Below are positions 41,288-60,740 of a stretch of 64,000 nt of DNA, piece by piece; the first letter of the stretch is position 1, and each line of letters starts with the position of its first letter. The notes under the pieces were generated by a model that was not told the origin of the DNA, made no database searches, and saw only the letters and a program-made list of their open reading frames with translations. Both the position numbers and the translations under genes were made by a program. The stretch is from the IMG/VR virus record IMGVR_UViG_3300037851_001164, positions 3,904-67,903 of that record, one strand, 5' to 3'. Source of the DNA: a virus.

Positions 41288-41330
41288 AAACAAAAAGCCG
41301 CCATGCCGGCCTGGCCGGACCATGGCGGCT
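41288..41330 (-). terminator. Intrinsic terminator-like hairpin in the head-operon leader
   Basis: AGCCGCCATG...CATGGCGGCT followed by TTTTGTTT on the minus strand. Confidence 0.65.
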
Positions 41331-41971: not shown

Positions 41972-42342
41972 GGGCCCCCGCCATCCCGCGCCCTGAGCAT
42001 CAGCTCCAGCCGGGCCAGGGCGTTCCAGGCCGTGTGCGCGGCGTGGGCGAGCCCTGAATCCCGGTCCGGGTCCTCGCCGGCCGCCTCGGCCAGCAGGTGG
42101 CGCCAGAGCGCGTCGGTGTAGCGCTCCCGCCCGTCCGGCACGTGCATCCAGCTACCGGGGCTGTACTTGATTGTGCCGTAGGTGCCCACCTCGCCCACCG
42201 CGGCCAGGGCCCGGGCGAAGCCGCCCAGCACCAGCCCCAGGCGCGGCTTGCCCGCGTCGAGCTTGGCCCCGGGCTCGTGCGGGGTGCGCCCGGTGGGGTC
42301 GGCCTCGCAGATCGCGTCGCCGCGCGCGATGCCGGCCTTCAT
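41965..42342 (-). CDS. dATP/dGTP diphosphohydrolase (DUF5664-like)
   Basis: GAKLDAGKPRLGLV, YG..KYSPGSW, YTDALWRH, DSGLAHAAH.AWNAL. Confidence 0.85.
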   Translation of the reverse strand: MKAGIARGDAICEADPTGRTPHEPGAKLDAGKPRLGLVLGGFARALAAVGEVGTYGTIKYSPGSWMHVPDGRERYTDALWRHLLAEAAGEDPDRDSGLAHAAHTAWNALARLELMLRARDGGGPS

Positions 42343-45300
42343 GCCGCCAGGGCGAAGAGGTCCGCCCCGCCCGCCGCCACCTGCCGCTCCTGTCGCGCCC
42401 GCCGGATCATCCCGGCGATGCCGGTGTCGTCCAGCCCCTCGAGCGGGCTGGTGAGCACCTCGCGCAGGGCATACTTCTCGGCCAGGCGCTTCCTGGCCGC
42501 CCGCTCGGTGGGGTGGTCGGCCACCAGGTCGATGAGCTCCACCTCGTGCTTCTGCCCCAGGCGATCGATGCGACCGTTGCGCTGGGCGTGCCCCTTGGCG
42601 GTGTCCGGGGTGTCGTACTGCACGAGCCACCGTCCGCGCTGCAGGTTGAGCCCCACCTGAGCCGCATCCGAGGCCACCAGGATGTCGGCCGCGGGCTCGC
42701 CCTCCTCGGGGCTGAAGGCGCGGCGCCGGGCATCCTTCTCCTTCGCCCCGTCCTCGCCGGTGACGGTGACCACCCGATGCCCCTCGCGGGTGAGACGCTC
42801 AGCAATCTGCCGCACCGCTTCGCGCGAGTGCGCGAACACCACCCCGGGTCGGCCCCGGCGCTCGCCGGCGATCTTCGTCAGGTGGTCGAGCTTGGCTGCC
42901 TGCGGGTGCTCATTCAGCACCCGCCGGTGGGCGGCATCGCGCACCATGCCGAGCGCCAGGGCGAGCCGCTTCGCGGTCGCCTCGTGCTCGGCCGCGGGCA
43001 CACCCGCGAACGCCCCGGGCGAGAGCTGGCGTAGGGCCGCGACATCCACCTGGCCGCGCATACGGGCGAGCCGGGCACGGGCGAGCAGCCGATCAGTGCC
43101 CTCGAGCGCGGCCTTCTGGGCGCCGTTGACCGGCACGGTCTCCTCGCGCCGCTCGGCGCGCACCCCGGAGCCGATGCGCCCCGGGTAGAAGTGGCGCAGC
43201 ATCTCGCGGCGCAGCTGCTCCTTCGCCGCCGCCGTGTCCACCCCGTAGCGGCGCAGGAAGGCATCCCGGTCCGCGTAGCGCACCGGGTCCATCTTGTGCA
43301 GGATGTCGAAGGCCTCAGAGGGGTCGTTCTTGACCGGATCTGCAGAGGCCGACACGTAGTACGGGGTCTCGTGGGCCACCGCATCCACCACGTGGGCGAG
43401 CAGGCTGCTCTGCTTGCCGCGGCGGTTCAGCAGATCGTGCCCCTCGTCCACCATCAGGTAGTCGAAGCCGATGCCCTCGCGCCCCAGGGTGTCGCGGGCC
43501 CAGGAGCGGCGCTCGCCCTCGCTCATGGCAGACAGGCGCTGGGCCATCTCGGCCTCGCCGATGCCGGCATGCTTGGCGCCCAGGTGAGCCAGGTCGTCGC
43601 GCAGAGCCTGGTGGGTGACCACGGCGAAGTGGGTGTTCGCATCGCGATAGGCGGCCAGGCGCGACTCGCGAGAGGCGCCGGGCTCGATGTGCCAGCGGTA
43701 CTTGCCCGGCTTCAGGTAGCGCAGGGCCTCGCCCGCGAACTGCCCCTGCACCACCGAGGGGACCACGAACAGACCGCGCTTGACCTTGCCCTGGCCGTGC
43801 AGGTGGGTGAAGGCGCCCAGGCCGATGACGGTCTTGCCCGAGCCCACACCCTGGGCCAGCACCACGCGCCTGCCGTGCTCGATGAGCTTCACCGCGCGCT
43901 GCTGGTTGACGTACTTGCCGTCCATCGACGCGCGCCACAGGGCCACCGGCTGCCCGGGGCGAAAGTTCGGGCCCACCACCCCCATCATGCCGGCGATGGC
44001 ATGCTCGGCGGCGGCGCCCAGGGTGTGGCGCTCGTCGGCGGCGAGCGGTAGCTCTTTCGCCGGCTCTGGCTCGGTCGCGAAGAAGCCCATCTGTGACTGC
44101 TGCATGGCCTCGACCCGCTCGCGAGCCGCCGCCAGCTTGTCGGACACCGCGCCGGAGGCGTAGCGCCCGGCCACCCGGTCGCGCAGGCTGTCGATGAGCG
44201 CGCGCTGCTCGGCCAGGCGCCGCTCGCGGGCCTGCGGGTCCACCGCGTCCAGGTGATCCAGGTTCCCCCGCACCACGGTGCGCCCGAGCTTCAGCGGCGA
44301 GTGTGGGGCGAGCTTGTTGTAGGCATCGGCGAAGGCCTTCGCCACCCGCCCGCGCACCAGGTCCTGCACCGCCGTGTAGGCCTGCGGCTGGCCGCCCATC
44401 ACCTGCACGTAGCGGCCCCAGGTGAGCCCTGAGGCGTTGAGTTGCTCGGCGAGCTCATCGCGGCGGGCCTTCCAGGCGGTCCACGCCGGGTTGGTGCCGC
44501 GCCCGAACATGTCGTCCACCTCCCGCTCGGGCTCGTTGGCCGCCAGGTCCTCGAGCTGACCGCGCAGCTCGGCGGTCCGCGGGTCCTCGTGAGCCACGTT
44601 GGCGGCGAACCAGTCGCGCAGGGCCCGGCGCTCGCGCGGAGCCAGATCGCCCACCGGGCGGTAGGCCACGGTGCCCGCTGGCTCGTGGGCCAGCGCCCGG
44701 TGCAGGGCCTCGACTGCCGAGCGGTCCACCGGGAAGCTCTGGCGGTGCAGAGGCGAGCGCCGGGCGCCGAAGCGGTCTGCGACGAAGGCATCGGCCAGGG
44801 CCTCGAAGGCCTCCTGGTGGGCCTCGGCGCGCACCGGCTTGCCCTTGGCGTCCTTCAGCGGCGCCACCTGGTCGATGGCCGCGAAGTAGGCCGTGCGCTG
44901 GTCCTCCGGGACCTTCCGTGCCAGGTCCTGGGAGAGTAGATCGGCCAGGATGTCGGCCGGCGGATCGCCGTCCGCGGTGCGCCCACCGATGTAGTCGCGC
45001 ACCGACTGCGCCAAGTCATTGCCCGGGGTGAAGGGTTCGGCGAGCCGCGGGGCCACCCCGGCTGGCACCGGCATGGCCAGATCTGGCCGGTCGGAGATCC
45101 CGAGCGGCAGCCAGCCGGGCTCGTCGCGCCGCCCCTCGATGATGTCGAGCGCCGCCCGCGCGTGCTCCAGGTCCTCGCGCGCCACCGGCCGCGACAGCCG
45201 GTCCAGCCCCGCCGGAGTGACCGAGAGCATGCGCTGTCCGGCCACCTCGTCCACCTGGTAGTCGCCATCGCCCAGGCCGATGGCGCGGGCCCGGGCGATG

Positions 45301-47579
45301 GCGGACTCCAGACTCGCGGTGCCCATGGGCACCTGCAGGGGCGCGTCGCGCCGGCCCTGCTTCAGGGCCACGATAAGCGCGGCGTTGGCCTCGAACTCGC
45401 CCAGGGCCACGCCCAGCGCCCGCCGGGCCTCGGCCAGGGCCTGCGCGCGGCGCCGGTTGGCCTCCTGGGCCAGGGCCAGATCGTGGCCGTCCACGGCGGC
45501 GCCCACGTCGATCTCCGCGGCCACCTGGCGCGCGGCCGCGGCCTGCGCCAGTGCCCGCTTGCCCTCCTCCTGGTAGCGCCCCACGTGCCACTGCTCGAGC
45601 GCGCCGAGCGCGTCGGCCACGTCCTCGGCAGACAGGTCCGCGTGCAGGCGCCGGGCGAGCACCTGGGCCGCCCCGGCCACGCCCAGCACGTCCACCACGT
45701 CGCGATCCACCAGCGAGGCCCCGCCCGCGGCCAGCGCCAGGGCGTTCACCGCGTTGTGGGCGCCCACGCCCACGTGCCGGCCCAGGGACTCGGCGCCGCC
45801 GAGCTTCCCCACCTCGTCCAGGAACGAGCGGGTGGCGATGCTGGCCAGGTCGTCAGCCAGCATGGACCGGATCTCGTCGTCCTCGACCGGCCGCTTGCCC
45901 ACCTCCAGCACGTAGGCCTTCTCCTCTGGCACCGGGGCCTGCTCGATCTTGCGCAGGGCCTCGCGGGCCTGGGCGCGCACCTGCTGCAGGGCCTTGCTCG
46001 CCTTCAGGAGCTCCACCGCCTCGCGGGCCGGCAGCACCCTGGCGCGGTCCACCGTGGGGGCCTCGATGCGCACCTGGTCCAGCTCGCGCCGAATGCCCTC
46101 GACGGTGGCCTTGCGCCTGGCCAGCCCCTCGCGCTGCTCCTCGGGGCGCTGGGCGCGCAAGCGCTCGGCCTCGGCCCGCACCTCCTCCTCGGTGGCGCCC
46201 GCGGCCTGCGCCCGCTTGCCGTAATCGGTGGCGTAGCCCAGCCCCCGATCGGGCGGGGCCACCGGGTCGAGATCCGTAGTCGCGAGGGTATCCGGGTCGT
46301 CGGAGTGCAGGGGGATCTCGCCGAAGGCCTCGTCGCGCGCCTCGGCATCGGCGAGCAGGCGCTGGCGCTGGGCCTCGACGGACTCCTGGGCGCGCGCCAG
46401 CAGCTCGGCGTGGTGCTTGAGGCGGGCCTTGTTCTCGGCCTGCTCGGTCATGGGCCGCTCTGGCTGCCACTCCAGGTCCTCGGGCGACCAGCCCATGGCC
46501 CGGGCCACGGTGTGGATGAGCTCGCGCTCCTGGGCGCGCACCTGGGTGGAAACCGCCTCCTTCTGCTTCCTCTTGGCGACGTAGGTGCCGGCTTCCTTGT
46601 CGCGCCTCCTCTGCTCGGCCTGGCGCGCCCGGTGGGCCTCTGCTTTGGCCCTGGCCTCCTTCTTGTACTCTGCCTCGCTCCTGACCCCGCGCAGCTTGAG
46701 GTAGTTGAGCTTGCCGCCGGCACCGCCCACCACGTGGAACACGCCGGAGCCCTCCTTGGTCTCGCGGATCAGGACCGGGGTTCCTTTGGATTCCTTATCC
46801 CCGTGTGCATGGATCGTTATCCATCTCTCACCTGGTCTAAGCGCCTTATCGAGCGCCAGAGCCTCCGGCTCGTCACCGCGCCAGAGATCGATGGATACGC
46901 CCCGGGCGAGGGGCGGGTGCGCCTTGAGCAGCCCGTCCAGAGTAGCTAGACTGTGATTCGTCCGACCACTACCGGCCTCGCAAGAGGTGGTGACACCCGG
47001 GGGAGCAATCCCGCCCCCATTTGGGGCTTCAAGCTGGGGGAATGTGGAGCAAGGCCCGCTCTTCTGGAGCGGGCCTTCATTTTTCCGTCCTCCACGACGG
47101 TGCATTAGCCTTGCAACATTTTCGATGGAACGGAAATGCGCACTGCTGAAGCCATACGTCTTCGATGGCGGGTGCCACTTCAAGACAACCGTGTAATGCT
47201 CGCCGCCGACGTTGCGCTCCAAGAACAGATCGGCATCCCAATCGCGCAATCGCCGCGTCGGGTACTCGATGACTGAGAGGATGCGCCCCATCGCCTGCGC
47301 CCGCCTGGCGTCGAATACGCGCACCCCGGTCTTCTGCCTCCCGCCCGCATCCGTCGTGTAGGCGTGGTCGTTCCTGGCATCGAACCGCACCCGGATCGGG
47401 ATCTCGCGCCCGCCCGAGTGCACCACCAGCGGCAGGGTCTTGCCGCCCAGGTGCTCGCGCCAGTAGGCGCTGGCGTCGTCATGGGTGGCGAGGTGCACGC
47501 TCGACGGCACGTGCGTGCCACCGTGCTGCGGCCCCCACCAGCCCTGGCCCGGGCCCTTGAGCAGCAGCAGGGCGCGCAT
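42339..47579 (-). CDS. Giant SNF2-type helicase polyvalent protein (1746 aa) with an N-terminal nuclease-like domain
   Basis: AQGVGSGKT, VDEGH, SDAAQVGLNLQ, QRNGRIDRLGQ; start MRALLLLKG at 47579. Confidence 0.85.
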   Translation of the reverse strand: MRALLLLKGPGQGWWGPQHGGTHVPSSVHLATHDDASAYWREHLGGKTLPLVVHSGGREIPIRVRFDARNDHAYTTDAGGRQKTGVRVFDARRAQAMGRILSVIEYPTRRLRDWDADLFLERNVGGEHYTVVLKWHPPSKTYGFSSAHFRSIENVARLMHRRGGRKNEGPLQKSGPCSTFPQLEAPNGGGIAPPGVTTSCEAGSGRTNHSLATLDGLLKAHPPLARGVSIDLWRGDEPEALALDKALRPGERWITIHAHGDKESKGTPVLIRETKEGSGVFHVVGGAGGKLNYLKLRGVRSEAEYKKEARAKAEAHRARQAEQRRRDKEAGTYVAKRKQKEAVSTQVRAQERELIHTVARAMGWSPEDLEWQPERPMTEQAENKARLKHHAELLARAQESVEAQRQRLLADAEARDEAFGEIPLHSDDPDTLATTDLDPVAPPDRGLGYATDYGKRAQAAGATEEEVRAEAERLRAQRPEEQREGLARRKATVEGIRRELDQVRIEAPTVDRARVLPAREAVELLKASKALQQVRAQAREALRKIEQAPVPEEKAYVLEVGKRPVEDDEIRSMLADDLASIATRSFLDEVGKLGGAESLGRHVGVGAHNAVNALALAAGGASLVDRDVVDVLGVAGAAQVLARRLHADLSAEDVADALGALEQWHVGRYQEEGKRALAQAAAARQVAAEIDVGAAVDGHDLALAQEANRRRAQALAEARRALGVALGEFEANAALIVALKQGRRDAPLQVPMGTASLESAIARARAIGLGDGDYQVDEVAGQRMLSVTPAGLDRLSRPVAREDLEHARAALDIIEGRRDEPGWLPLGISDRPDLAMPVPAGVAPRLAEPFTPGNDLAQSVRDYIGGRTADGDPPADILADLLSQDLARKVPEDQRTAYFAAIDQVAPLKDAKGKPVRAEAHQEAFEALADAFVADRFGARRSPLHRQSFPVDRSAVEALHRALAHEPAGTVAYRPVGDLAPRERRALRDWFAANVAHEDPRTAELRGQLEDLAANEPEREVDDMFGRGTNPAWTAWKARRDELAEQLNASGLTWGRYVQVMGGQPQAYTAVQDLVRGRVAKAFADAYNKLAPHSPLKLGRTVVRGNLDHLDAVDPQARERRLAEQRALIDSLRDRVAGRYASGAVSDKLAAARERVEAMQQSQMGFFATEPEPAKELPLAADERHTLGAAAEHAIAGMMGVVGPNFRPGQPVALWRASMDGKYVNQQRAVKLIEHGRRVVLAQGVGSGKTVIGLGAFTHLHGQGKVKRGLFVVPSVVQGQFAGEALRYLKPGKYRWHIEPGASRESRLAAYRDANTHFAVVTHQALRDDLAHLGAKHAGIGEAEMAQRLSAMSEGERRSWARDTLGREGIGFDYLMVDEGHDLLNRRGKQSSLLAHVVDAVAHETPYYVSASADPVKNDPSEAFDILHKMDPVRYADRDAFLRRYGVDTAAAKEQLRREMLRHFYPGRIGSGVRAERREETVPVNGAQKAALEGTDRLLARARLARMRGQVDVAALRQLSPGAFAGVPAAEHEATAKRLALALGMVRDAAHRRVLNEHPQAAKLDHLTKIAGERRGRPGVVFAHSREAVRQIAERLTREGHRVVTVTGEDGAKEKDARRRAFSPEEGEPAADILVASDAAQVGLNLQRGRWLVQYDTPDTAKGHAQRNGRIDRLGQKHEVELIDLVADHPTERAARKRLAEKYALREVLTSPLEGLDDTGIAGMIRRARQERQVAAGGADLFALAA

Positions 47580-50251
47580 CACCCGGCCTTCAGCAGCAGG
47601 ATGCGTGCGGCCTTGCGCAGGCCCCGCCCACCGACCCATGCCGGCACGGCATGCCCCATGTCCTCCAGGTAGCGGTGAGCAGCATCGGTCAGCGTCACAT
47701 CGGGCACGCCGCCCACGTCGCGCAGCACCGCCTCGGGGTCGATGCCCTTCTCGCGCGCCAGCGCCCGGAACTGCTCGATGCGCTGATAGGCGGTATGCAG
47801 GTCTGACCAATCCATGCCGGCCGCGGTCTCGGCCTGGTAGCGACCGCCGGCAGAAGGTCTGCCATCGAGCACGCGCGCATGCTCCAGGCTCTGCGCCGCT
47901 GCGCGCAGCTTGGCCGCGGACACGGCGATACGGGTGCGCACGCTCTCGGGGACCCGACCACTTAGGCTGGCAATACGGTCCTCCACCTGGGCGAGTCGGC
48001 GGGTGAGCGCCGGATCCACTGGCTGCCCGCGCGCCTGGCGGGTGAACATCCAATACTGTCGCTGCCGCTCCGCCTCCAGATTGGAGCGCTCACGCTCGGC
48101 CTCCTCCAGTGACAGAGAACCGACATCCGTCATGGTGCCAAGTGCCGCAGACGGCTGCGTTACCAGCTCTTCGGCTGGCGGTAGTGCCGGCTCGGCAGCG
48201 GGCGGTGCCCCGTCGCCCACCCCGGCCAGGCGCTTGGCATGGTACAGGGCGGCATTGGAGCGCTGGCGCTGCCAGGCGCCCTCGCTCGGCGCCCAGCGAA
48301 AGCCCGCCTGCTTGAGCTGCCGGCGGGTGGCCTCGTCGGGCTTGCCGGGGAAGAACACCTGCACCCGGTTGGCCTCCGGGCTATCCACCACCCTGGCCGC
48401 GGCGCCCTCCCACTCGCCCGCCGGGGTCGCGTCCACCCGGTGCATGGTGTCGATACGTGCCTTGAGCCGCCGGATCTCCGCGCCCATGTTCTGCAGCTGA
48501 TAGCTCGGGATGCCGATGCGCCCGCCATAGACTGAGCCGTCTGGCGTCTTCAGCTTCGCTATCGTGCTCTCGGACAGGCCCATGGCGGCCAGGGCGGCGT
48601 CATCGCCCCGGCGCAGCGCCGCGTTGATGGCTACAAACTGCTCGCGTTGCCGCTCGAGCTTGGCCAGCTTCTCCTGCAGCTTGGCCACGGCATCAGGGTC
48701 GTCCGAGGAGACCGCGCTGCTACTCTCGGCAGCATCCGCCCGGCGCTCCAGGTCAGCCGCCTCCTTGCTGGCCTCGACACCGGCACGCATGGATCGGTCG
48801 ATCTTCCTGATGTCGCTGCGGTGGCGCTTCTCGCTGTGATGCCCGACCAGGATGGGCTGCCCCAGCGGGATCATGTCGCCGATCTTCTTCGCCCGGTCGA
48901 AGGCAGCGGCCGCCTCGACGCGCCGCTTCTCCGCGCGCGCCCGCAGCCGCTCGATGTGGGCCTCGCGCCGCTCGGCGAAGTCCGCTCGGCCGCCGGAGCG
49001 CTGCGTCGGGCTCAGGACCGGCAGACTGGAGAGCTTGGTGACCAAGCTCTCTACCAGGTGATGCCGCTCCATCATGCTCGGTCGGATCACGTCTGGAGAA
49101 CCACGCTCCCAGCCGGGCGGCATGCGCTGATCTTCGGGTACCAGCCGGGCCACACCGTGTCGGTTATCTTCGCCGGTGGGGCGGTAGTACAGGGCCATGT
49201 TTAGGTTGGCGAGGAGCTGATCCCGAGTCAGGGTGAGCACTGCATCCTCGGCGATGCGCCGTACCGCAGCCCACCTCGACTTGCTATCTTCTGGCAGAAC
49301 ATCGAGCCCCTGCTTTGGCAGCGGGGTGTACCAAGACGGAGTCTCCGGCTCGCTTGGTGCGGCTGGTACGGGCGGAGGCTCGCTCATCGGGCGCACCTGC
49401 GAAATCGCCGCAGTGAACTCGCGCCCCTCGGGATCGCGCAGGCGAAGCCGCAGCCCGCCGGGCAGCACCTCCGGGACGGTGTGCGGACCCTTGCGGTGCT
49501 TCTGGGCGCCGAAGGTCTCGACCTTCTGGCCCGGGGTGAACGGGGCAGGCTCGTCGTCTTCGTCCGGTCCCTGCGGGGCGGGTGCGGCCCGTGCGTCCGG
49601 GTTGACCTCGACCCACTGCTGCACCCACTTCTTGGCCGCGGTCAGGTTCTCGAGATCGTGTTTCTCGCCATGGGTGGCAAGGGTCTGCGGGTCGAACACG
49701 TAAGCGGTATATCTGCCGCCGAGCAACGGCCCGGCAAGGCGTGCCACGAGACCACCAGGCAGCTCAGTGCGCCGGTATCCGTCCGGGGTCTGCGACTCGT
49801 GATGCCACTGGATCCGGGTGCTCTCATGAGGCGTGTCGCTCTGCGCACCTGGGCTGCCATTCCCGCGCCCAGTCATCACCGCCTCCAGAGCGCGCGGATT
49901 GCTGGAATTGGGATCGTAGAGCTTCGCCTTCTTCCTGCGTCCTTTCTGGCCGCGCTTCAGATGGCCCGATATACCCGTGGAGTTCATGTACTTCTGGCGC
50001 CAGGCCCAAGCGTCCTCCCGCGACTCAGCCCAGAACATTTCCTCGCCATCATCGTTCACGATCGACCACCCCATGGGGGGGCGCGACTCGCTCTTATCCG
50101 GGGCCTTCTTGCGCGTGGCCGTGTACGGTGCCACGTAGGTGCCCTGCGGGTTCACGTAGCCCGACACCTGGACCGGGGTCTCGAACAGGTCCGCGGTCTG
50201 CTTATCGCCGCGCCGGCGGGCCTTCATGAACAGCAGTGCGCGCATCGTCAT
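47579..50251 (-). CDS. Polyvalent protein with a DUF3560 domain
   Basis: IPLGQPILVGHHSEKRHR..IDRSM, AVSSDDPDAV.KL, NRVQVFFPGKPDE..R.LK..GFRWAPS. Confidence 0.8.
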   Translation of the reverse strand: MTMRALLFMKARRRGDKQTADLFETPVQVSGYVNPQGTYVAPYTATRKKAPDKSESRPPMGWSIVNDDGEEMFWAESREDAWAWRQKYMNSTGISGHLKRGQKGRRKKAKLYDPNSSNPRALEAVMTGRGNGSPGAQSDTPHESTRIQWHHESQTPDGYRRTELPGGLVARLAGPLLGGRYTAYVFDPQTLATHGEKHDLENLTAAKKWVQQWVEVNPDARAAPAPQGPDEDDEPAPFTPGQKVETFGAQKHRKGPHTVPEVLPGGLRLRLRDPEGREFTAAISQVRPMSEPPPVPAAPSEPETPSWYTPLPKQGLDVLPEDSKSRWAAVRRIAEDAVLTLTRDQLLANLNMALYYRPTGEDNRHGVARLVPEDQRMPPGWERGSPDVIRPSMMERHHLVESLVTKLSSLPVLSPTQRSGGRADFAERREAHIERLRARAEKRRVEAAAAFDRAKKIGDMIPLGQPILVGHHSEKRHRSDIRKIDRSMRAGVEASKEAADLERRADAAESSSAVSSDDPDAVAKLQEKLAKLERQREQFVAINAALRRGDDAALAAMGLSESTIAKLKTPDGSVYGGRIGIPSYQLQNMGAEIRRLKARIDTMHRVDATPAGEWEGAAARVVDSPEANRVQVFFPGKPDEATRRQLKQAGFRWAPSEGAWQRQRSNAALYHAKRLAGVGDGAPPAAEPALPPAEELVTQPSAALGTMTDVGSLSLEEAERERSNLEAERQRQYWMFTRQARGQPVDPALTRRLAQVEDRIASLSGRVPESVRTRIAVSAAKLRAAAQSLEHARVLDGRPSAGGRYQAETAAGMDWSDLHTAYQRIEQFRALAREKGIDPEAVLRDVGGVPDVTLTDAAHRYLEDMGHAVPAWVGGRGLRKAARILLLKAG

Positions 50252-50737: not shown

Positions 50738-50749
50738 GTAGTTACCTCG

Positions 50750-51280: not shown

Positions 51281-51282
51281 GC

Positions 51283-52003: not shown

Positions 52004-52013
52004 GGCGCCAGGA

Positions 52014-53999: not shown

Positions 54000-54688
54000 C
54001 AGATGAGCCCTCGCTCGGCGAACGACACGACATCGAGATTGCGGTCCCCGCCCACGATCAGGTGATCGAGCACGCGCACGTCCACAAAGGCGAGCGAGTC
54101 CTTGAGCCGCCTGGTCAGCTGCTCGTCGGCGCGGCTGGGCGATGCCACCCCGGAGGGATGGTTGTGCACCAGGATCACGGCGGCGGCGTTACGCGCCATC
54201 GCCTCCCGGACCACCTCGCGCGGGTGCACGCTCGCCCCGTCGATGGTCCCGCGGAACATCTCCTGGAAGTCGATCAGGCGATGGCGGTTGTCGAGCCACA
54301 GGCAGGCGAACATCTCGTGTGGGTAGGCCCCGAGCTTCAGCCGCACCAGATCGCGCGCGGCGCCGGGATTCCCCAACTCGTCGCCCGGCACCCGCAGCCT
54401 GGCTTGTAGCTCATTTATCGCTGCCGCGATCAGCGCATCGCCCGTGAGCGCGGGGGCTGGCGCTACATCCGGCGTAGCCACGACCACATCCTGCGTAGCG
54501 GGCTCCTGGGACGGTGCGCGGCGCGGCCGCCTTGGCACCGGCGCCTCGGCTGGCCCGCCGAACAGATCCGGCGTCACCGGATCCTCGGCCTCGTGGCGGC
54601 TATCGACGTAGGGTCGCACCAGCACCGGCCGGCCGGAGGGCAGGCGCCGGGTATGGCCCCGCACCCGGGTCTTCAACAACAGCATCAT
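53999..54688 (-). CDS. radC: RadC-like JAB/MPN domain protein
   Basis: [32 protein letters not shown]...[13 protein letters not shown]. Confidence 0.9.
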
Positions 54689-57600
54689 CGCTTCACCCTC
54701 CGTCCAGGTCGCAGCACTCCGAATGCCTGCGCATCAACGCCCGCGACATGCACCACGCGCTCGGTGTCGTAGATCACCACGCGGGTTCCGCTGTCGCTGA
54801 TGAAGTCGTGCATGGGCGCGACCTGATCGCGCAGCCGGCGGCTGGCGTCGGCCTTGGTGCCGCCGCGGATTTCCGCGTACAGCTCAGCCGCCACACGGTC
54901 GTTGACGGAGGCACGCCCGCCAGCCAAGAACCTGGCCTCCTCCGGCGACGGCATGCGCCCGAAGCGCAGGCTGTCGATGATCCGCGTCCGCCGCTCCGCG
55001 CTCACCCGCCCGGCATCGGCCTGGACGAGCTTGTCCGTCGCGTCGCGCAGCGCCGCCTCGCGCGACACCAGCCAGTTGCTCACCAGGTCCCACCCGCCGC
55101 TCGCGGCGCTGGGCACCCACGCCGAGAACCTGCCGGCCAGGTGCGCCAGGTGTCCTCGGCCGCTCGCGGCTTTGGCCCGCGCCTCTTCGATGCGGCGGAT
55201 CTCGCGGTCCAGCCGGTTCATTTCGCGAAAGGCGTCCTGCCGCTCCGAAGGCGTCTCGCCAGCATCGAGATCGAACACGTTGTAGGGCCGCCCCTCGGCC
55301 CGCATCGGCTCGAAGGTGGCATCGAAGCGCCGCCGCGCGGCGGCGTGGCGCTCGCGCAGCACCGCCAGATACGGATCGTCCTGGGCCGGCGCGTCCGGGT
55401 ACCGCCCCACCCAGATCCGCGGCCGGCCCGGGACCTCGCCAGGCGCCCACTCGGCAAGCCCCATGGGCGGGGGACGCTCCTCTGGCGGCAGCAGCGCCCC
55501 GAACAGATCCCGCGCGTAAGCCGGGTCCGACTGCGCCCGGTAGGCGACGATCTCCTCCAGGCCGTAGTCATCCGGCAGCTCCAGCCCGGCGCGCCGGGCG
55601 GCGGCCGCGTACACTGCCAGGGTCACGTACTGCCCATCCGCCTCGACCGCCAGGCCGGCGGAGGCCGCCAGTTCCGCCCGGTCGCTGGGCACCATCAGCT
55701 CGATCTCCAGCATGGCGCGCAGCTGTCCCTGTTCATGGGCCTGCGGCAGGGCGCGCAGCAGAGCGCGCAGGCTCTTCGCCTGGTGCCAGGCGATCTCGGA
55801 GACCCCCTCGGCAGGGCGCGCGGTGCGATAGCTGGCGCTGCTGGCGTGGGCGAGGAGCTGCTCGCCATAGGCGATGGCCGCGTCCCGCGCGCGCTCCACC
55901 GCCGCCAGGGCGGCCCCGGGGCGGCGTTCATCGCCCCACAGGTCCAGCCAGGCCAGATGCACCAGCTCGTGGGTGAGCGCCCCGGTGCTCGGGAACCGAT
56001 CCCCCCAGAACTCGATGCGCGTGCCGTTGACGGTGATGGCGGCAGCCTGCCGGTACTGCGCCCGCAGCTCCGGCGGCACCGCCTCCAGGGTCGCACGGTA
56101 GACGAGGGGGAAGTCGGGCTCGCCCTCGCTCAGACCCATGCGCTGCAGTCGCCCGCTCTGCGCGCCGGCCCTGCGCTCCATCCAGGCGCGCACCGGATCC
56201 GGCAGCGCCGGCAGCGCCGCGGCTAGCTGGTCCTGGAAGGCCTCGGGCCAGGCGCCCGCGGCGGCGCGGGCCGCGAGGGCGGCGGCAAGGGCCGGGCCGA
56301 TGGCTCCGGAGCGCGCAAGAGCAGCCCAGCGAGCGGGCTCGCCAGATCCGGCTCCACCCCCAGGGCCCGCATCCGCTCCCGGATCTGGTCGGCCTTTGCC
56401 TGCAATAGCGGGTCGTAGCTCATGCGGTGCGTCCTCCGGGGCTGCGAACAGGTCGAGGGTGCGGTCGTCAGGCCGCGGGCGGCGCGGCACCCGGTTGGTG
56501 TACGGCTGGACCAGCACGGGCCGGCCGCCGGGGCCGCGCCGGCTGTAGCCGCGCACATAGGCGCGCAGCAGCAGGATCGGGCGGGCCTTCAGGATGTGGT
56601 CGAGATCTGGGCGGAAGGTGCCGATGTTGCCGGCAGCGGACTTGATCTGCTCGCGAGCGAAGACGACACACACCTTCTCCGTGTACGGGTCATTGTCTGG
56701 CTGCTTGTACCGGGTCCAGTGCTCGAAATACCCGTCATAACCACGCGCTCTGAGCGCAGTCGGAGAAAGCCGCTGCACCAGCGAATATGGAGCAGGGTTC
56801 TTCAGTAACAGGTAGGCCAGCATGACGTTGCCATGCTCGCCATACTGACTTGCGGTAGTAGGTGCTTCGGTGAAGTACGCTTCGCCACCAGCAATGTTGA
56901 AAGCGGTGAAGTCGTTTGAGGTCCCATGGTACACCACCTGCGGCTCGCCGTTCTCGTCCAGGACCTTCGACACCCCCTCGCCCTTGACCGCGGCGACCAG
57001 ACGGGCCATCCTGTCATCGAAGCCCACGGGCGGGTGTGGAAGTCGGGCCTGGTCCACCAGGACAGTCGAGTCCCCCCTATCGACGTGGGCTTCATCTATT
57101 TCCACGGCTGCCACGGTGTAGATGCGGCTGCCTTGGTCGACGCGCTCCATCTCCTTCACCAGCAGCTTCGCCCGCAGGACCCTGCCACCGAACGGCATGG
57201 GCGCGTCGAAGTGGTGCCAGGCAGTGATACCGGCGGCCCCATCGGCATCCGGCCGGCTCATCCGCAGGGTGGACACCTCGAACAGCCGGTCCAGGTTCGC
57301 GACAGCCATCATGTGCGCCTGCGGGGAAATGGAGCTTGCCGCAGCGCTGCCGCTCGTCATCTTCCCGAGCGTCACCCCGGAGACGGTCGCAACGTGCCCC
57401 GTCTCGGCGTTGACCAGTGGCCGGTTCAGGAACGCCTGAGCCGCCTTGCGCGCCTGGTCCGAGCCGGTGATGTCGCGCATCCGTGATGGCAGCGTGGCCG
57501 CTCGCCAATCGCCAAACCACCGCTTGAAGTTGGGCGTCCGCACCAGCACCCATTGCCGCTCGGTGAGCCGGGTCGGCTGGCCGTTGGGCGCCTTCATCCA

Positions 57601-59535
57601 GGCCGGAGTGCCCCGGTAGCGGGCCTCGACTTCCCGGTACTGGCGCACCGCCTCGGTGATCTCCCGGGCCGACACCTCACCGTCCCCGGCATAGGTCGCC
57701 AGCAGCCCGACCAGTAGCGGATCCTGTCCGGGAGCGGACTCCTCGGCGGTCCGAGTCCACCGCCGGGCCCGACGCCCGCGCTTGTCGGTCAGCTCGCGCA
57801 GGGATAACCCGGGGCGACCCTTGAGGGGACCGGCCTTGGCGAGCAGGAGCACCGCCTTGGCCAGCACCGGCCGGCCGCCGGGGCCGCGGCGGGTGTGGCC
57901 GCGCACGTGGGCGCGCAGGAGCAGGAGCGGGCGGGCCTTCAGAATGTGGTCTAGGTCCGGGCGAAACGTGCCGATGTTGCCGGTGGCGGACTTGGCCGCC
58001 TTTCCAGAAAAGGCGATGTACCACGACTCTTCGCTCGACTTGCTGCGGTCCCCGTAGAGGATGCCATCCGCGCCTCCCTGAATCGCCTTGTGCCGCAGCG
58101 CATCGGTCGCCGCGGGGCCGCTGTAATGGGCGGCAGCCATCTCTGTGTGCGTGGCCACGTAGGGGCTCCTGATAGCCAGAAACACCGCCTGGATATTTGC
58201 CCCCACGGGATACCATGCCGAGTCCGCTCCCTGGTCATAGCGAGCAACGGCACCCGCCCACACGCTGGCCCCGTGCACGCGCTCGCTCTCAACCCCCCGC
58301 TCACGGCCATGATGGGTGGTGAAGAAGTGCCCGAGCCTCGCGGACGCCGCCTTCGTCTGCCGCCCCAGGAACGCATCGTCGAACCGAGACAGGTCCGCCT
58401 CTGTCCCGTGGTACACCACCAGCGGCTCGCCGTTCTCGTCGAGGACCTTGGACACGGCGCCCGAGTTGACCGAGCGCCACCAGGTGGCTAGTCTGTTCTT
58501 GGAAAGCCCCTCGGCGTCTTCCCCCGGCTTTGGTTGCCGGTCAGGTTGACGAGCACCGACAGGGGCTTTCGTCTCGTCAAGGGCCTCGACAGAGGTCGCA
58601 TCGTTGTCGTAGTACACGTTTCCGTCTACATCTTCCCTTAGCACCAGACGTACATAGGCTTGCTGGCCGTCGAAGTCAGCGCGCACACCGTAATGGTGGT
58701 ACGCTCGGATATTCGGCTTCCTTGGGTTGGCTGCGGGATCGGACCAAAGAGGCAGTGCCAGCGGAAGCAAATCAGCAAGCTGCGGCACTACCCGCAACAC
58801 TCGGCGGTCTGCAGCATGATGGGCGGTCTCCTTGAACGAAGAGACTGGGAATGAGACCTCCCGCCCATCTCGGGTAGTCGCCTTCGGTAACCGGGAATAA
58901 GCTTGCCGTGCCAACTCTCTGGCCTGCCGAACATCTGATGCGGCGGCGATAGCTTTGTCCGTAATGGCCACAGCCGGCATGGTTTGAAGCACCGTGCGAC
59001 GCCCCAAGCTCTCCCAATCCCCAAACCACCGCATGAAGTTGGGGGTCCGCACCAGCACCCACTGGCGCTCGGTAAGCCTAGTCGGCTGCCCGTTCAGGGC
59101 CTTCATCCACGCCGGAGTGCCGCGGTAGCGAGCTTCGACCTCCCGGTACTGGCGCACCGCCTCGACGATCTCCTGGGCCGACACCTCACCGTCGCCGGCA
59201 TAGGTCGCCAGCAACCCGGCCAGCAGCGGGTCCTGTCCAGATACAGACTCCCCGGCGGTCCGAGTCCATCGCCTGGTCCTGTGCCCCCTCTTATCGGTCA
59301 GCTCGCGCAGGGAGAGCCCAGGGCGACCTTTGAGGGGACCGGCCTTCACCAGCAACATGAGTCCCTTGCCCAGCCGCCGGCTCTTGCCCGCGGCGCGAAT
59401 GCAGGCATGCACCGCGTCGGCCTCGGTCCCGCCCCGGGCCAGCACGGCATTGGCGGCCACCGTGCACCTGCGCCGGGCACCAGCATCCCAGCCCCGGGCC
59501 GGCGGCGGCACGTGCTCGGGGTAACTCCAGGGCAT
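54685..59535 (-). CDS. Polyvalent polyprotein (1616 aa): ChaB-like N-terminus, two LPD23-LPD3-ART modules, C-terminal unknown domain
   Basis: Two copies each of [31 protein letters not shown] and [15 protein letters not shown]; start MPWSYP at 59535. Confidence 0.75.
56514..57995. repeat. Direct repeat pair 56514-56645 / 57858-57995 ([36 protein letters not shown])
   Basis: Near-identical DNA. Confidence 0.8.
57505..59346. repeat. Direct repeat pair of about 333 bp (57505-57837 / 59014-59346) inside the polyprotein gene
   Basis: Near-identical DNA encoding [21 protein letters not shown]...RWFGDW. Confidence 0.85.
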
Positions 59536-60740
59536 CAGCCGATCTCCCCGGCCAGCAGCTCGTCGAGCCAGCGATCGAACTCGGTGGGCACCCCGGGCAC
59601 GGCCTGCGGCAAGGCAAGCCACCGGCCCCGGCAATTCGGATGCACCACGCCCGCCGGCACCCACCAGCGCTCCTCGGGAGCGCGCTCGACCAGCGTGTTG
59701 CCCACGCGCTTGCGCGGGCTCGCCGAGCGCCCGACGTTGCTCTTTCCCGCCCACACCTGGGTCGCACCGTTTTTGTCCTGGGCGCTGGGGCTGACCACCT
59801 CGAAGACCAACCCGTGGATAGCGCGGCAGAAGGCGCAGGCCCCGCTGTAGGCCTCCACACGCTTCAGGCGCGCCCCGGGGGCGTGGGCGGCCACCAGCCC
59901 CTCGTTGGCGGCGCGCCCGGTCTCGGTGATGGCGATGCGCCGCCAGTCGCGGTTGAGCTCGGCGAAGCCCTCGACCAGCCGCTGGCGCAGCGCCGTCCAG
60001 GTGCCCGCCGGCATGCCGAGCACCATGGCCTCCTGGTGCTCGATGACCGCCAGCGCGATGCGATGGCGGGCCGCCGCCCGCAGATCGGTGATGAGCTCCG
60101 CGGCACGGGCCCGGGCGAAGTCGATCACCGCCGCCTCGATGCCAGTCAGCCCCGGCGGCAGATCGTCACGCGCCACCGGCAGCAGGGCCGTGATGGCGGC
60201 CGGGGCCCAGGTACCCCGCTCGCGCCCGGCCATGGCCGCCTGCACCTTGCCGGCCAGGGCCGCGCGCACCGCCAGGTAGTCGGCCTCGGTGCGAATCACG
60301 TCATCCGGCAGATAGGCCTGCACGACCCACTCGGCGAGCAGCAGCCAGTCCTCGAGCGTGTAGCGCTCGACCGGCAGCCCGGCCAGGCGATCGCCCACCG
60401 CCGAGAGCCATTCGTGGCCGCGGCGGGTCCAGGCAGCCGGAGCGGCCTTGCCCAGCTCGTCCCCGGCGGCCATGTCCAACACCCGCAGCAGGCGCTCGAG
60501 CATCCTCTGCAGGCGCGAGCCGAGGGCATGCGCGACCTGCTCCACGTGCCGCACGATCCACGGGTTGTCGTGCGGGGCGTCGAGCCCGGCGCCGTCAGGC
60601 GGATCGGCCAGGGCCTTGTACAGGTGCTCGAGGGCGTGGTCAGTGCAGCCACAGGAGACCTCGCCCAGATCGAGCAGCAGGCGGCCATCCGGACCGCCTG
60701 CGGCAGGCTGGACATCGCCAGCAGCGTGCGTCAGGGACAC
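59535..60740 (-). CDS. Minor head protein, Mu gpF/SPP1 gp7-like
   Basis: DWRRIAITETGRA, ACAFC, HPNCRGRW. Confidence 0.8.
   Translation of the reverse strand: MSLTHAAGDVQPAAGGPDGRLLLDLGEVSCGCTDHALEHLYKALADPPDGAGLDAPHDNPWIVRHVEQVAHALGSRLQRMLERLLRVLDMAAGDELGKAAPAAWTRRGHEWLSAVGDRLAGLPVERYTLEDWLLLAEWVVQAYLPDDVIRTEADYLAVRAALAGKVQAAMAGRERGTWAPAAITALLPVARDDLPPGLTGIEAAVIDFARARAAELITDLRAAARHRIALAVIEHQEAMVLGMPAGTWTALRQRLVEGFAELNRDWRRIAITETGRAANEGLVAAHAPGARLKRVEAYSGACAFCRAIHGLVFEVVSPSAQDKNGATQVWAGKSNVGRSASPRKRVGNTLVERAPEERWWVPAGVVHPNCRGRWLALPQAVPGVPTEFDRWLDELLAGEIG

What the first reader, a model, noticed from the sequence alone, without database searches (positions are those of the whole stretch)
42339..60740. 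Head-cargo system: polyvalent proteins tagged with the capsid maturation motif (hydrophobic-x-K-[A/S/G])
Seen: five large non-structural proteins in the head region carry a Leu-rich K[A/G/T] tag at or near their N-terminus: MRALLLLKG (47579), MRALLFMKA (50245), RPLLLVKAG (about 53830), MMLLLKT (54688), LMLLVKAG (about 59350). Related motifs sit between domains (LQKS, LLKAH, LDKAL in the SNF2 protein; [25 protein letters not shown] in the polyprotein) and at a C-terminus (LRKAARILLLKAG). Several tags are followed by a second shared motif, VRG[H/Y][T/S]R..G..V.PY, or by [L/V]..LTD..G...RW.RTA. Established: Herelleviridae capsids such as Listeria phage A511 Cps are cut after the Lys of a K-S site; this capsid has LRK-ALEAGYG at the homologous position. 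Inference: the tag directs packaging into the prohead and protease release of separate effector domains for injection, like T4 internal proteins or P1 DarA/B but with a modular tag.
Basis: partly seen in the sequence, partly recalled or inferred. Interest (0 to 1): 0.85.

Follow-up and report, generated by a model that had tools for sequence, protein, structure and literature searches.

The report
Lysine-cut loading tags on phage cargo
Large anti-defence enzymes encoded next to this phage's head genes carry a short Leu-rich peptide ending in Lys-Ala/Ser/Gly/Thr. It matches the site where the capsid itself is trimmed, so it probably loads them into the capsid and lets the head protease cut them free.

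Summary

- **Where:** the window is part of a 70-kb, 72% GC myovirus contig. Its capsid, scaffold and protease are of the SPO1/Herelleviridae type.
- **What:** six genes between a MuF-like gene and the prohead protease include polyvalent proteins. Domains found are ART-PolyVal x2, LPD3 x2, RadC, DUF3560 and an SNF2 giant.
- **The tag:** it reads hydrophobic3-5-K-[A/G/S/T]. It stands at N-termini, between domains and at one C-terminus.
- **The match:** capsid (LRK|ALEAGYG), protease, scaffold, MuF-like protein and portal share the core [LIVMF]-x-K-[A/S].
- **Statistics:** the core is enriched in the head trio (11 observed, 2.35 expected) and in the cargo, but not in 43 other proteins.
- **Conservation:** in 55 distinct homologues of the SNF2 giant, Lys and Ala/Ser are invariant just before the conserved core, whether the junction is N-terminal or internal.
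- **Spread:** a tag-plus-hairpin profile finds 1379 protein clusters. Among 50,697 phage records it hits only phages of this capsid lineage.
- **Virion evidence:** the GenBank record of Yersinia phage fHe-Yen8-01 marks two tagged proteins as particle associated.

Cleavage and targeting remain inferred. I class it as a new variant of the T4/P1 capsid-targeting idea. Earlier notes of this scan describe analogous tags in other phage lineages.

The parts
47553..47579 (-). N-terminal tag MRALLLLK|G of the SNF2 giant (gene 42339-47579)
   Evidence: Its start codon shares one base with the stop codon of the upstream gene.
46842..47069 (-). Three internal L-x-K-[A/S] sites (LQK|S, LLK|A, LDK|A) in the N-terminal extension of the SNF2 giant. 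LDK|A lies directly before the conserved core (G.RWITIH).
   Evidence: LDKA aligns with the N-terminal leaders ALFFYK|S and ALFFFK|S of L011 and L012. The phrog_62 match starts at residue 249.
50111..50245 (-). N-terminal leader of the DUF3560 protein (gene 47579-50245): MRALLFMK|A, then ADLF, then a VQVSGYVNPQGTYVAPY hairpin variant
   Evidence: It has the same three-part layout as the methyltransferase-giant leaders of related phages.
47579..47620 (-). C-terminal LRK|AARILLLK|AG* of the DUF3560 protein
   Evidence: Similar hydrophobic C-terminal tails after a K-[A/S] occur in PHB04 gp028 and in L094.
53724..53834 (-). Tag A in the 661-aa protein (gene 52014-53999): LLLVK|AGPVKDRPGLALRDLTDRAGHHTKRWMRTAED
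   Evidence: repeat family D3.
54605..54688 (-). N-terminal tag B of the RadC/JAB protein (gene 53999-54688): MMLLLK|T followed by the [19 protein letters not shown] hairpin
   Evidence: AlphaFold2 with a 113-sequence alignment gives residues 1-7 as coil and a hairpin at 8-28 with pLDDT 83-88. Repeat family D4.
59251..59361 (-). Tag A near the start of the ART polyprotein (gene 54685-59535): LMLLVK|[31 protein letters not shown]
   Evidence: repeat family D3.
57715..57945 (-). Linker 1 of the ART polyprotein, between the first ART-PolyVal unit and the second LPD3 unit: ILK|A, LLLLR|A plus hairpin, VLAK|A, LLLAK|AG plus tag A
   Evidence: repeat families D3 and D4.
56485..56595 (-). Linker 2 of the ART polyprotein, directly after the second ART-PolyVal domain (Pfam 933-1047): ILK|A, ILLLR|A plus the [20 protein letters not shown] hairpin
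   Evidence: repeat family D4.
60612..60623 (-). LYK|A near the N-terminus of the MuF-like protein (gene 59535-60740)
   Evidence: The site is kept as LHK|A in L007, IYK|A in PHB04 gp030, MHK|A in fHe-Yen8-01 gp002 and MYK|A in L095.
40417..41304 (-). Prohead protease. Its C-terminal part (40609-40692) copies the capsid N-arm, including LAK|ALEAGYG.
   Evidence: phrog_1028 at 7e-33; sequence; the mimic is conserved across the family.
39770..40420 (-). Scaffold-like protein with a long acidic tract and five [LIVMF]-x-K-[A/S] sites in 216 residues
   Evidence: The sites align with K-S sites of L012.
38287..39738 (-). Major capsid protein. The predicted maturation site LRK29|A30LEAGYG lies at 39649-39660.
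   Evidence: phrog_752 at 1e-85. phmmer matches to SPO1 Gp6.1 (9vel) and to 5lii/9row.

Best explanation
The tag is a combined loading and cutting signal for proteins carried inside the capsid.

The phage belongs to a large clade of roughly 50-95 kb myoviruses. Cultured members include Bordetella PHB04, Pseudomonas Dolphis and Touem01, Yersinia fHe-Yen8-01 and the Thermus Lalka and Cumys phages. Their prohead protease is inferred to cut after Lys in [LIVMF]-x-K|[A/S/T/G].

Anti-defence enzymes are made either as separate proteins or as polyvalent polyproteins. Each unit begins with a short flexible leader: a few basic or Pro residues, then 3-5 hydrophobic residues, then Lys and a small residue. 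The leader is often followed by a basic beta-hairpin, consensus HVxGYTRKDGTxVxPH.

Proposed steps:
1. The hydrophobic leader and the basic hairpin take the cargo into the assembling prohead. The acidic scaffold or the MuF-like protein at the portal is the likely partner.
2. The protease, docked by its own copy of the capsid arm, trims capsid, scaffold, portal tail, MuF-like protein and cargo at the same kind of site. This removes N-terminal leaders and separates the domains of polyproteins.
3. The freed enzymes leave with the DNA at the next infection.

Shown: the motif exists, is enriched, is conserved and modular, is restricted to this capsid lineage, is predicted to be flexible and resembles the capsid site. 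Recorded by others: tagged proteins are particle associated in one relative. Inferred: targeting, cleavage and injection.
For: 1. The capsid site LRK|ALEAGYG aligns with VVK24|S25 of a capsid whose mature PDB chain starts at S25. SPO1 Gp6.1 has LNK|ALEAGH at that place.
2. The core motif is 4.7-fold enriched in capsid, scaffold and protease, and 1.9-fold in cargo. It is not enriched in 43 other proteins.
3. Across 55 distinct homologues of the SNF2 giant, P1 is K in 55 of 55, P1' is A or S in 55 of 55, and P3 is F, L, M, V or I in 55 of 55, directly before the conserved core. In 37 the site is an 8-20-residue N-terminal leader with P5-P2 all hydrophobic in 29. In 18 it is an internal junction that keeps only about two hydrophobic residues (Mann-Whitney p = 1e-5).
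4. This window's internal LDK|A aligns with the N-terminal leaders of L011 and L012.
5. AlphaFold2 leaves the leader outside the fold in both cases tried.
6. In the annotated PHB04 genome, 4 of the 12 genes between portal and protease start with the tag, against 1 of 112 elsewhere (p = 2.5e-4).
7. The tag-plus-hairpin profile finds 1379 representative proteins at E <= 1e-3, many with 2-6 copies flanking InPase, PBECR3, LPD3, Acb1, RadC, ART-PolyVal and AcrIF11-like domains.
8. All five genomic contexts sampled are cargo arrays beside a portal or a MuF-sized gene. Up to four consecutive genes start M..hhhhK[A/S]HV.GYTR.
9. tblastn of the module against 50,697 phage records hits only the closest capsid relatives. 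Against 72,556 plasmids it gives only weak partial hits.
10. The fHe-Yen8-01 record marks gp129 (MLVLAK|A..., a 2146-aa ART protein) and gp131 (MLK|AQIKGYMRRDGVYVKPH) as phage particle associated.
11. [quoted passage not shown] The Lalka phages, relatives of this one, encode DarB and Ulx homologues that their authors think are packaged.
Against: - No mass-spectrometric or N-terminal sequence data show cleavage at any tag.
- The three-residue core occurs at chance frequency inside 47 giant cores (observed/expected 1.09), so there is no sign of selection against internal sites.
- P2' is usually His in the hairpin form but Leu in the capsid, so the two sites are not identical.
- Two copies in this window have Arg instead of Lys (LLLLR|A).
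- The hairpin also occurs in tandem arrays without any hydrophobic-K part (P0165, P0167, P0173), so it has a life of its own.
- The protease-leader co-fold gave no answer.
- The 'particle associated' label in fHe-Yen8-01 is also given to terminase and to methyltransferases, so it is not very selective.
- P1' of cargo and capsid do not strictly co-vary between phages.
Confidence: 0.55

Rival explanations
1. The tag is only an address or anchor. It binds the scaffold, the MuF-like protein or the portal and takes cargo into the prohead, but it is not cut. Lys and the small residue are conserved for binding.
For: The DarB signal of P1 works as a targeting sequence, and the paper reports no shared cleavage motif among Dar proteins. 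There is no depletion of the core motif inside the giant cores. The basic leader and hairpin face a very acidic scaffold tract.
Against: K and A/S are invariant even at internal junctions that have lost most of the hydrophobic run. The same core marks the capsid arm at the place where a homologous capsid starts its mature chain. Double sites such as MIK|A followed by LLLK|T are typical of linkers.
Confidence: 0.2
2. The module is a generic inter-domain linker or a nucleic-acid or clamp-binding peptide of polyvalent proteins. Conserved linker DNA serves as a recombination joint for domain shuffling. Any likeness to the capsid site is coincidental.
For: Leader DNA is repeated three times for each type. 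The DUF3560 and SNF2 genes meet inside two adjacent leader copies. The methyltransferase-giant leaders carry Q[L/F]xLFD, which reads like a sliding-clamp-binding motif. Hairpin arrays exist without the hydrophobic-K part.
Against: The module is absent from plasmid and conjugative records at the sensitivity used. Among phage records it is confined to one capsid lineage. It is the very first residues of many single-domain proteins, where no linker is needed. The same core is enriched in scaffold, protease and portal tail.
Confidence: 0.12
3. The polyproteins are processed by a peptidase of their own, as Iyer et al. proposed for polyvalent proteins. Candidates are a zincin-like domain (the HELVH motif at 55900-55989 of the ART polyprotein) or the RadC/JAB protein. 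The prohead protease is not involved.
For: There is an HExxH motif in the unassigned C-terminal 600 residues of the polyprotein. Iyer et al. 2017 propose processing by a zincin-like metallopeptidase (MPTase). P1 DdrB is annotated as a possible metallopeptidase.
Against: No Pfam or PHROG family matches that region, and the atlas leads are weak. Most tagged proteins in relatives have no peptidase domain. This reading does not explain the identity of the tag with the capsid, scaffold and protease sites.
Confidence: 0.08
4. The tag is a composition artefact. Leu, Ala and Gly-rich strings arise by chance in a 72% GC genome.
For: The genome has about 9% Leu and 15% Ala. Several copies are paralogous repeats.
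Against: The shuffles keep composition. The 43 other proteins show no excess. The tag is conserved in phages of 54-67% GC and in lower-GC enterobacterial phages.
Confidence: 0.02

Closest known systems
Capsid targeting sequence (CTS) of phage T4 internal proteins (IPI-III, Alt), removed by prohead protease gp21
   Same: A short N-terminal peptide of about 10 residues that ends in the protease's own cleavage motif. It stands in front of unrelated cargo and is portable. The cargo is injected and counters host defence (background from PMC9024508, and my own knowledge).
   Different: T4 cuts after Glu (L/I-x-E); here the cut is inferred after Lys. Here the tag also recurs inside polyproteins and often carries a conserved basic hairpin. 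Nothing has been tested experimentally.
Phage P1 Dar system (DarB, Ulx, DarA, Hdf, DdrA, DdrB)
   Same: Giant helicase or methyltransferase anti-restriction proteins are packaged in the head. DarB needs its N-terminal 30 residues for packaging. Relatives of this phage encode DarB-like and Ulx-like proteins beside the tagged giant. Lysis genes sit among the cargo genes in both P1 and this window.
   Different: The P1 authors found no consensus among the N-termini of the Dar proteins, and the P1 capsid is cut at E120|S121. The DarB N-terminus (MNKLSMGVFR...) does not resemble the tag. The helicase part of this giant does not hit P1 DarB at E < 1e-5. No Ulx motif was found in this contig.
Propeptide-bearing ejection proteins of giant phages phiKZ and SPN3US
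   Same: Many head-internal proteins are cut by the prohead protease at one shared motif during maturation (abstracts of PMC10052503 and PMC7411985).
   Different: Those phages have a Glu-specific motif, long propeptides, a different capsid lineage and proteins that are not polyvalent.
Polyvalent proteins (Iyer, Burroughs, Anand, de Souza, Aravind 2017, PMC5512222)
   Same: The same domain repertoire (ART-PolyVal, LPD3, RadC, InPase, PBECR, SNF2). Delivery with the DNA and proteolytic processing were both predicted.
   Different: That paper proposes processing by zincin-like or assemblin-like peptidase domains inside the proteins. By my text search it describes no leader or linker motif.
SPO1/Herelleviridae-type capsid maturation
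   Same: The capsid is homologous (E 7.5e-37 to SPO1 Gp6.1). The N-arm K-[A/S] lies at the position where a staphylococcal phage capsid starts its mature chain.
   Different: High-GC, probably temperate phage of a separate clade. No cargo tags are described for Herelleviridae as far as I could find.

Membership tests
Polyvalent proteins (Iyer et al. 2017) | Two or more conflict-related domains in one polypeptide, including families specific to polyvalent proteins | tested here: met
   The ART polyprotein has ART-PolyVal x2 (6e-30) and LPD3 x2 (4e-29). The neighbours carry RadC, DUF3560 and SNF2/Helicase_C.
Polyvalent proteins (Iyer et al. 2017) | Encoded by a phage or conjugative element, often beside head-morphogenesis genes | tested here: met
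   The source is an IMG/VR virus record. Capsid, protease, sheath and portal-side genes flank the array.
T4-type capsid targeting sequence | A short N-terminal peptide that ends in the prohead protease's cleavage motif | tested here: inconclusive
   Three of six cargo proteins start with an 7-9-residue tag whose end matches the capsid site core. The specificity of the protease is itself inferred from homology.
T4-type capsid targeting sequence | Sufficient to package a foreign protein, and removed in the prohead | not testable with these tools
   Needs reporter fusions and virion N-terminomics.
T4-type capsid targeting sequence | Cleavage after Glu in L/I-x-E by a gp21-type protease | tested here: not met
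   The residue before the small amino acid is Lys in 55 of 55 giant junctions, and Lys or Arg in this window.
P1 Dar system | A DarB-like giant with methyltransferase and helicase, followed by Ulx | tested here: not met
   This window has only the helicase giant. No Ulx motif was found in the contig. Relatives (PHB04, L095, Lalka) do have a methyltransferase giant plus an Ulx-like gene.
SPO1/Herelleviridae-type head maturation | A homologous major capsid protein with N-arm K-[S/A] at the mature N-terminus position | tested here: met
   phmmer matches to 9vel_C, 5lii_P and 9row_B. Residue 1 of 9row_B corresponds to S25 of 5lii_P and to A30 here.
SPO1/Herelleviridae-type head maturation | Actual removal of the N-terminal 29 residues by the protease | not testable with these tools
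   Needs protein data from virions.
MuF / SPP1 gp7 head-morphogenesis protein (for gene 59535-60740) | A match to Pfam Phage_Mu_F or to a PHROG of that function | tested here: not met
   No Pfam hit up to E = 5 and no PHROG hit. It is called 'MuF-like' only because of its position after the portal and a C..C...HPNCRG motif seen by eye.

The most novel reading that the evidence does not exclude
A portable 'load here, cut here' cassette, tuned to a Lys-specific prohead protease, defines a virion cargo proteome that can be predicted from sequence, covering more than a thousand protein clusters.

On this reading, polyvalent proteins of this phage clade are true polyproteins. They are cut apart inside the capsid into ready-made counter-defence enzymes: ADP-ribosyltransferases, Acb1-like, AcrIF11-like, pyrophosphatases, DarB-like methylases and helicases. 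These are injected with the DNA.

In the methyltransferase giants of related phages, the cut would expose an N-terminal Q[L/F]xLFD peptide able to grip the host sliding clamp.
Probability: 0.4. Interest if true: 0.85.

Novelty: new variant of a known kind. Interest (0 to 1): 0.7.

Why it matters
- **Prediction.** If the reading holds, a 7-35-residue signature tells from sequence alone which phage enzymes travel inside the capsid and act before any phage gene is expressed. That is hard to learn otherwise.
- **Timing of counter-defence.** Domains known or annotated as anti-CBASS (Acb1), anti-CRISPR-like (AcrIF11-like ADP-ribosyltransferase) and anti-restriction (DarB-like) would then count as pre-made injected effectors.
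- **Processing.** It gives a concrete mechanism for processing polyvalent proteins that differs from the self-processing proposed in 2017.
- **Use.** It offers a simple handle for loading foreign proteins into capsids of a widespread phage clade that has cultured members.
- **Evolution.** It suggests how such arrays evolve. Units with their own leader fuse and split at the leader, as at the DUF3560/SNF2 gene boundary in this window.

Tried and rejected
- **Close relatives by the protease alone:** none in viral contigs.
- **tblastn of this window's own linker against phage records:** no match. It is probably too divergent or was masked as low complexity.
- **RadC homologue search:** dominated by the JAB domain. 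Only two hits (P0007, P0011) carried a leader, but they gave the first outside confirmation.
- **Pfam and PHROGs on leaders, the 661-aa protein, the MuF-like protein and the polyprotein C-terminus:** nothing.
- **Tag as first beta-strand of the conserved giant domain:** not supported by AlphaFold2. Residues 1-15 have no secondary structure and residues 1-7 have pLDDT below 50.
- **Protease(1-186) with the RadC leader(1-45) co-fold:** no answer, score 0.00. This is neither for nor against binding.
- **Avoidance of the core motif inside giant cores:** none found, observed/expected 1.09.
- **Co-variation of P1' (Ala or Ser) between capsid and cargo across phages:** only partial. GC content could explain it.
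- **Tag A (LTD..G...RW.RTA) in other loci:** one loose relative only, in L007.
- **Literature on A511 or phi812 capsid cleavage:** not found in the held library.
- **Virion proteomics papers for PHB04, Mecenats66 or the Lalka phages:** none.
- **Ulx motif in this contig:** absent.

Full report
**What the window is.** The window lies in a 70,376-base IMG/VR virus record that CheckV rates 77% complete. It has about 72% G+C. On the minus strand it carries a myovirus late region:
- tail sheath (phrog_279);
- major head protein, 38287-39738 (phrog_752, 1e-85);
- a scaffold-like acidic protein, 39770-40420;
- head maturation protease, 40417-41304 (phrog_1028).

The nearest cultured capsids, at 37-47% identity, belong to roughly 90-kb myoviruses:
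- Pseudomonas Touem01, Dolphis and Jeremy
- Bordetella PHB04
- Morganella Mecenats66
- Aeromonas ST4
- Yersinia fHe-Yen8-01
- Enterobacter phiT5282EW
- Escherichia ECML-606-1

Thermus phages follow, and Herelleviridae at about 28%.

**The genes in the finding.** Upstream of the protease, on the same strand, lie these genes.

| Gene (window, minus strand) | Size | Content |
|---|---|---|
| 59535-60740 | 401 aa | MuF-like by position and a C..C...HPNCRG motif only; no Pfam or PHROG hit |
| 54685-59535 | about 1616 aa | Polyprotein with LPD3 x2 and ART-PolyVal x2; unassigned C-terminal 600 residues holding an HELVH motif |
| 53999-54688 | 229 aa | RadC/JAB protein |
| 52014-53999 | 661 aa | No family hit |
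| 47579-50245 | 888 aa | DUF3560 protein |
| 42339-47579 | 1746 aa | SNF2/Helicase_C giant |

A GH108-type endolysin (50750-51280) and a small membrane protein sit in the middle of this array.

**Check of the observation.**
- Every quoted string is present at the stated place.
- Three tags are true N-termini: SNF2, DUF3560 and RadC.
- Two lie 55-60 residues inside their proteins.
- The rest are in linkers just outside the Pfam domain envelopes, or at the DUF3560 C-terminus.
- Follow-on motif B (VRG[H/Y][T/S]RR.P.GRPV.V.PY) and follow-on motif A (GP.K.RPGL.LR.LTD..G....RW.RTA) each occur three times. Each is also a DNA repeat of 73-80% identity, so the copies are partly paralogous.

Enrichment against shuffles that keep each protein's composition:

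| Motif | Protein set | Observed | Expected | Shuffles reaching it |
|---|---|---|---|---|
| [LIVMF]{3}K[AGST] | cargo | 6 | 0.61 | 0 of 300 |
| [LIVMF]{3}K[AGST] | 43 other proteins | 3 | 0.95 | 27 of 300 |
| [LIVMF]-x-K-[AGS] | capsid + scaffold + protease | 11 | 2.35 | 0 of 300 |
| [LIVMF]-x-K-[AGS] | cargo | 21 | 11.3 | 3 of 300 |
| [LIVMF]-x-K-[AGS] | 43 other proteins | 14 | 14.6 | 182 of 300 |

The N-terminal form occurs in 3 of 6 cargo proteins and 0 of 46 others (p = 9e-4).

**The link to capsid maturation.**
- The capsid N-arm reads ...EALRK-ALEAGYGTDMSALTGGAAIRVQSLD.
- The protease carries a near copy, LDLAK-ALEAGYGADVATLTGGAALRRQSLD.
- This mimic is conserved across the family.
- In the PDB search, a 463-aa capsid chain (5lii_P) aligns DVVK24-S25FQTGYG with LRK29-A30LEAGYG.
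- A 439-aa chain of the same protein (9row_B) starts exactly at S25.
- SPO1 Gp6.1 has LNK-ALEAGH at that place.

The homologous Lys therefore marks the mature N-terminus in a solved relative. From memory, 5lii is phage phi812. The A511 statement itself could not be verified.

The same core recurs five times in the scaffold and five times in the protease. It also recurs near the N-terminus of the MuF-like protein, where it is conserved as [L/I/M]-[Y/H]-K-A in five phages. In relatives, and in this contig just outside the window, it recurs close to the portal C-terminus.

**Conservation in relatives: the strongest evidence.** The core of the SNF2 giant (G.RWITVHPNG...GGAGGKLNYL) was found in 113 viral contigs, of which 80 loci were fetched. 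In 55 distinct sequences the residues just before the core are invariant in pattern:

| Position | Residues | Count |
|---|---|---|
| P1 | Lys | 55 of 55 |
| P1' | Ala or Ser | 55 of 55 |
| P3 | Phe, Leu, Met, Val or Ile | 55 of 55 |

- In 37 sequences the site belongs to an 8-20-residue N-terminal leader. Examples are MKPILFLK|A, MRKILLLK|A and MSRPVLFLK|A.
- In 29 of those 37, all four positions P5-P2 are hydrophobic. Pro, Arg or Lys often precede them.
- In 18 sequences extra domains have been fused in front and the site is internal. Examples are EFFK|S, LLVK|A, TLAK|S and ILQK|A. These keep only about two hydrophobic residues, with acidic residues further upstream (p = 1e-5).
- This window is of the second kind. 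Its LALDK|A aligns with the leaders ALFFYK|S and ALFFFK|S of L011 and L012. A new leader, MRALLLLK|G, stands at the new N-terminus.

I read the shared part ([hydrophobic]-x-K-small) as the cut site and the additional hydrophobic run as the N-terminal address.

**Structure predictions.**
- AlphaFold2 on a 56-sequence alignment leaves residues 1-15 of the PHB04-type giant without secondary structure. Residues 1-7 have pLDDT below 50. The first strand is ARWITV. The tag is therefore not part of the fold.
- For the RadC leader, with a 113-sequence alignment, residues 1-7 are coil. Residues 8-28 form a beta-hairpin with pLDDT 83-88.

**Modularity and range.** In the annotated genome of Bordetella phage PHB04 the tag starts five proteins:
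- the helicase giant;
- the 2097-aa methyltransferase (MIILLTK|AQLALFD..VGAHVRKDGTVVKPH);
- gp028;
- an HD phosphohydrolase ((V)IVFLK|AQVAGYTRQDGTVVSPY);
- gp049.

That is 4 of the 12 genes between portal and protease, against 1 of 112 elsewhere (p = 2.5e-4).

A 34-column profile of tag plus hairpin (ILFLKAHVxGYTRKDGTxVxPHxDKR) finds 1379 representative proteins at E <= 1e-3 among 1.84 billion, and 147 at 1e-10.
- The best 150 hold 192 distinct full modules, N-terminal and internal.
- After Lys, the residue tallied was A 62, S 56, T 21 and G 6.
- The proteins checked carry InPase, PBECR3, LPD3, Acb1, RadC, ART-PolyVal and an AcrIF11-like ADP-ribosyltransferase.

All five contexts sampled are cargo arrays beside a portal or a MuF-sized gene. 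Up to four consecutive genes begin M..hhhhK[A/S]HV.GYTR.

By tblastn the module hits, among 50,697 phage records, only ST4, Dolphis, Jeremy, fHe-Yen8-01, PHB04, ECML-606-1, phiT5282EW and Touem01. These are the closest capsid relatives. Two chance-level Clostridium hits also appear. In 72,556 plasmids there are only weak matches to the hairpin part. The Thermus phage Cumys, a distant member, has LVLAK|AG before HRWITLHP and AFAK|AVQ in its capsid.

**Evidence for virion location.**
- The GenBank record of fHe-Yen8-01 labels gp129 as 'phage particle associated'. It is a 2146-aa ADP-ribosyltransferase protein starting MLVLAK|A.
- It gives the same label to gp131, which starts MLK|AQIKGYMRRDGVYVKPH.
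- It also gives it to the MuF-like gp002.
- I could not find the paper. The label is also given to terminase and to methyltransferases, so I treat it as supportive, not decisive.

**Known systems compared.**
[quoted passage not shown] No consensus among the Dar proteins was found, and the P1 capsid is cut at E120|S121 (PMC9024508).
- The N-termini of the P1 Dar proteins do not resemble the tag.
- Iyer et al. 2017 predicted delivery and processing of polyvalent proteins through their own metallopeptidase or assemblin-like domains. A text search found no leader motif in that paper.
- The Lalka preprint hypothesises that DarB and Ulx homologues are packaged, and mentions no motif.
- T4 and the phiKZ/SPN3US group supply the general precedent of protease-trimmed internal proteins, with Glu-specific sites.

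The thing here is therefore a Lys-type, repeated, modular variant of a known principle, attached to polyvalent proteins.

**Weak points.**
- Cleavage and targeting are inferred.
- The minimal core is not avoided inside folded giant cores (observed/expected 1.09).
- P2' differs between capsid (Leu) and hairpin tags (His).
- Two copies in this window have Arg at P1.
- The hairpin also exists in arrays without the tag.
- The co-fold test gave no answer.
- An HExxH motif in the polyprotein leaves room for self-processing.

**Earlier notes of this scan.** Other genomes gave analogous readings: e1-800510, e1-3296359, e1-3260488 and e1-3919487. Note e1-2902775 describes a three-part leader with a clamp-binding-like peptide. 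I see this too, as K[A/S]-Q[L/F]xLFD before the hairpin in the methyltransferase giants of about 28 related phages. In this window it appears only in degenerate form (ADLF, PDLF, LDLF).

**Verdict.** My best reading is a capsid-loading leader ending in the Lys-specific maturation site, at confidence 0.55. I class it as a new variant of a known kind, with interest 0.7.

Noticed in passing
window 50750-51666 (-): A GH108-type endolysin (EGGYVDHPADPGGSTRYGI) and a small membrane protein lie in the middle of the cargo gene array. In phage P1 the lysis genes lydA and lydB likewise head the dar operon.
   Followed up: partly
window 55900-55989 (-): An HELVH (HExxH) motif lies in the unassigned C-terminal 600 residues of the ART polyprotein. 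It may be a zincin-like peptidase. There is no Pfam or PHROG hit, and the atlas gives only weak LPD1/LPD23 leads.
   Followed up: partly
window 47553-47620 (-): The DUF3560 gene ends in ...ILLLKAG*, and the SNF2 gene starts at the last base of that stop codon with MRALLLLKG. Two adjacent leader copies in different frames look like a former polyprotein split, or a recombination joint, inside the leader.
   Followed up: partly
L013-L095 (methyltransferase giants of related phages); window 50111-50245: Leaders of the DarB-like methyltransferase giants read hhhhK[A/S]-Q[L/F]xLFD-AP-V.V..H.RKDG..V..H in about 28 phages. The middle part matches the sliding-clamp-binding consensus QL[S/D]LF. In the window only degenerate ADLF, PDLF and LDLF remain.
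   Followed up: partly
window 60745-62933 (-): There are two pairs of tandemly duplicated small genes between the tail-fibre-like gene and the MuF-like gene. One pair is about 200 aa, ending in ...GALP.TFPSGG.... The other is about 150 aa, reading MI.Y.EKG.GLH...AYDWSTGW, and hits phrog_2618.
   Followed up: no
window 62944-63999 (-): A tail-fibre or virion-structural-like protein (phrog_2647, 3e-62) lies between portal and MuF-like gene, an unusual place for one. The preceding ORF has a short collagen-like GPPGPAGAGG stretch.
   Followed up: no
window 39770-40420 (-): The scaffold-like protein has a roughly 60-residue tract of almost pure Asp, Glu and Gly. The cargo leaders and hairpins are strongly basic. 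An electrostatic scaffold-cargo contact is conceivable.
   Followed up: no
G000:C1:68294-70009 (portal, just outside the window); PHB04 gp035; fHe-Yen8-01 gp001; L007 4847-6607: The portal proteins carry a conserved [hydrophobic]-x-K-[A/S] about 10-18 residues before their C-terminus (FGK|AFRPP, LQK|AFGLP, IYK|SFGLP, LRK|SVPP). This suggests the portal tail is trimmed.
   Followed up: partly
P0165, P0167, P0173 (hits): Ser-rich proteins carry 3-6 tandem copies of the V.GYTR.DGT.V..[HY] hairpin without any hydrophobic-K tag. The hairpin is therefore an independent repeat unit in some other context.
   Followed up: no
L103 2672-4666; L007 6598-8370; PHB04 gp034: A Zeta-toxin/AAA_33 kinase-like protein of about 500-660 aa is a regular member of the cargo arrays right after the portal. 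In L103 it starts with the tag (MLLLK|SHVKG), and in L103 and L007 it ends in a hydrophobic tail.
   Followed up: no
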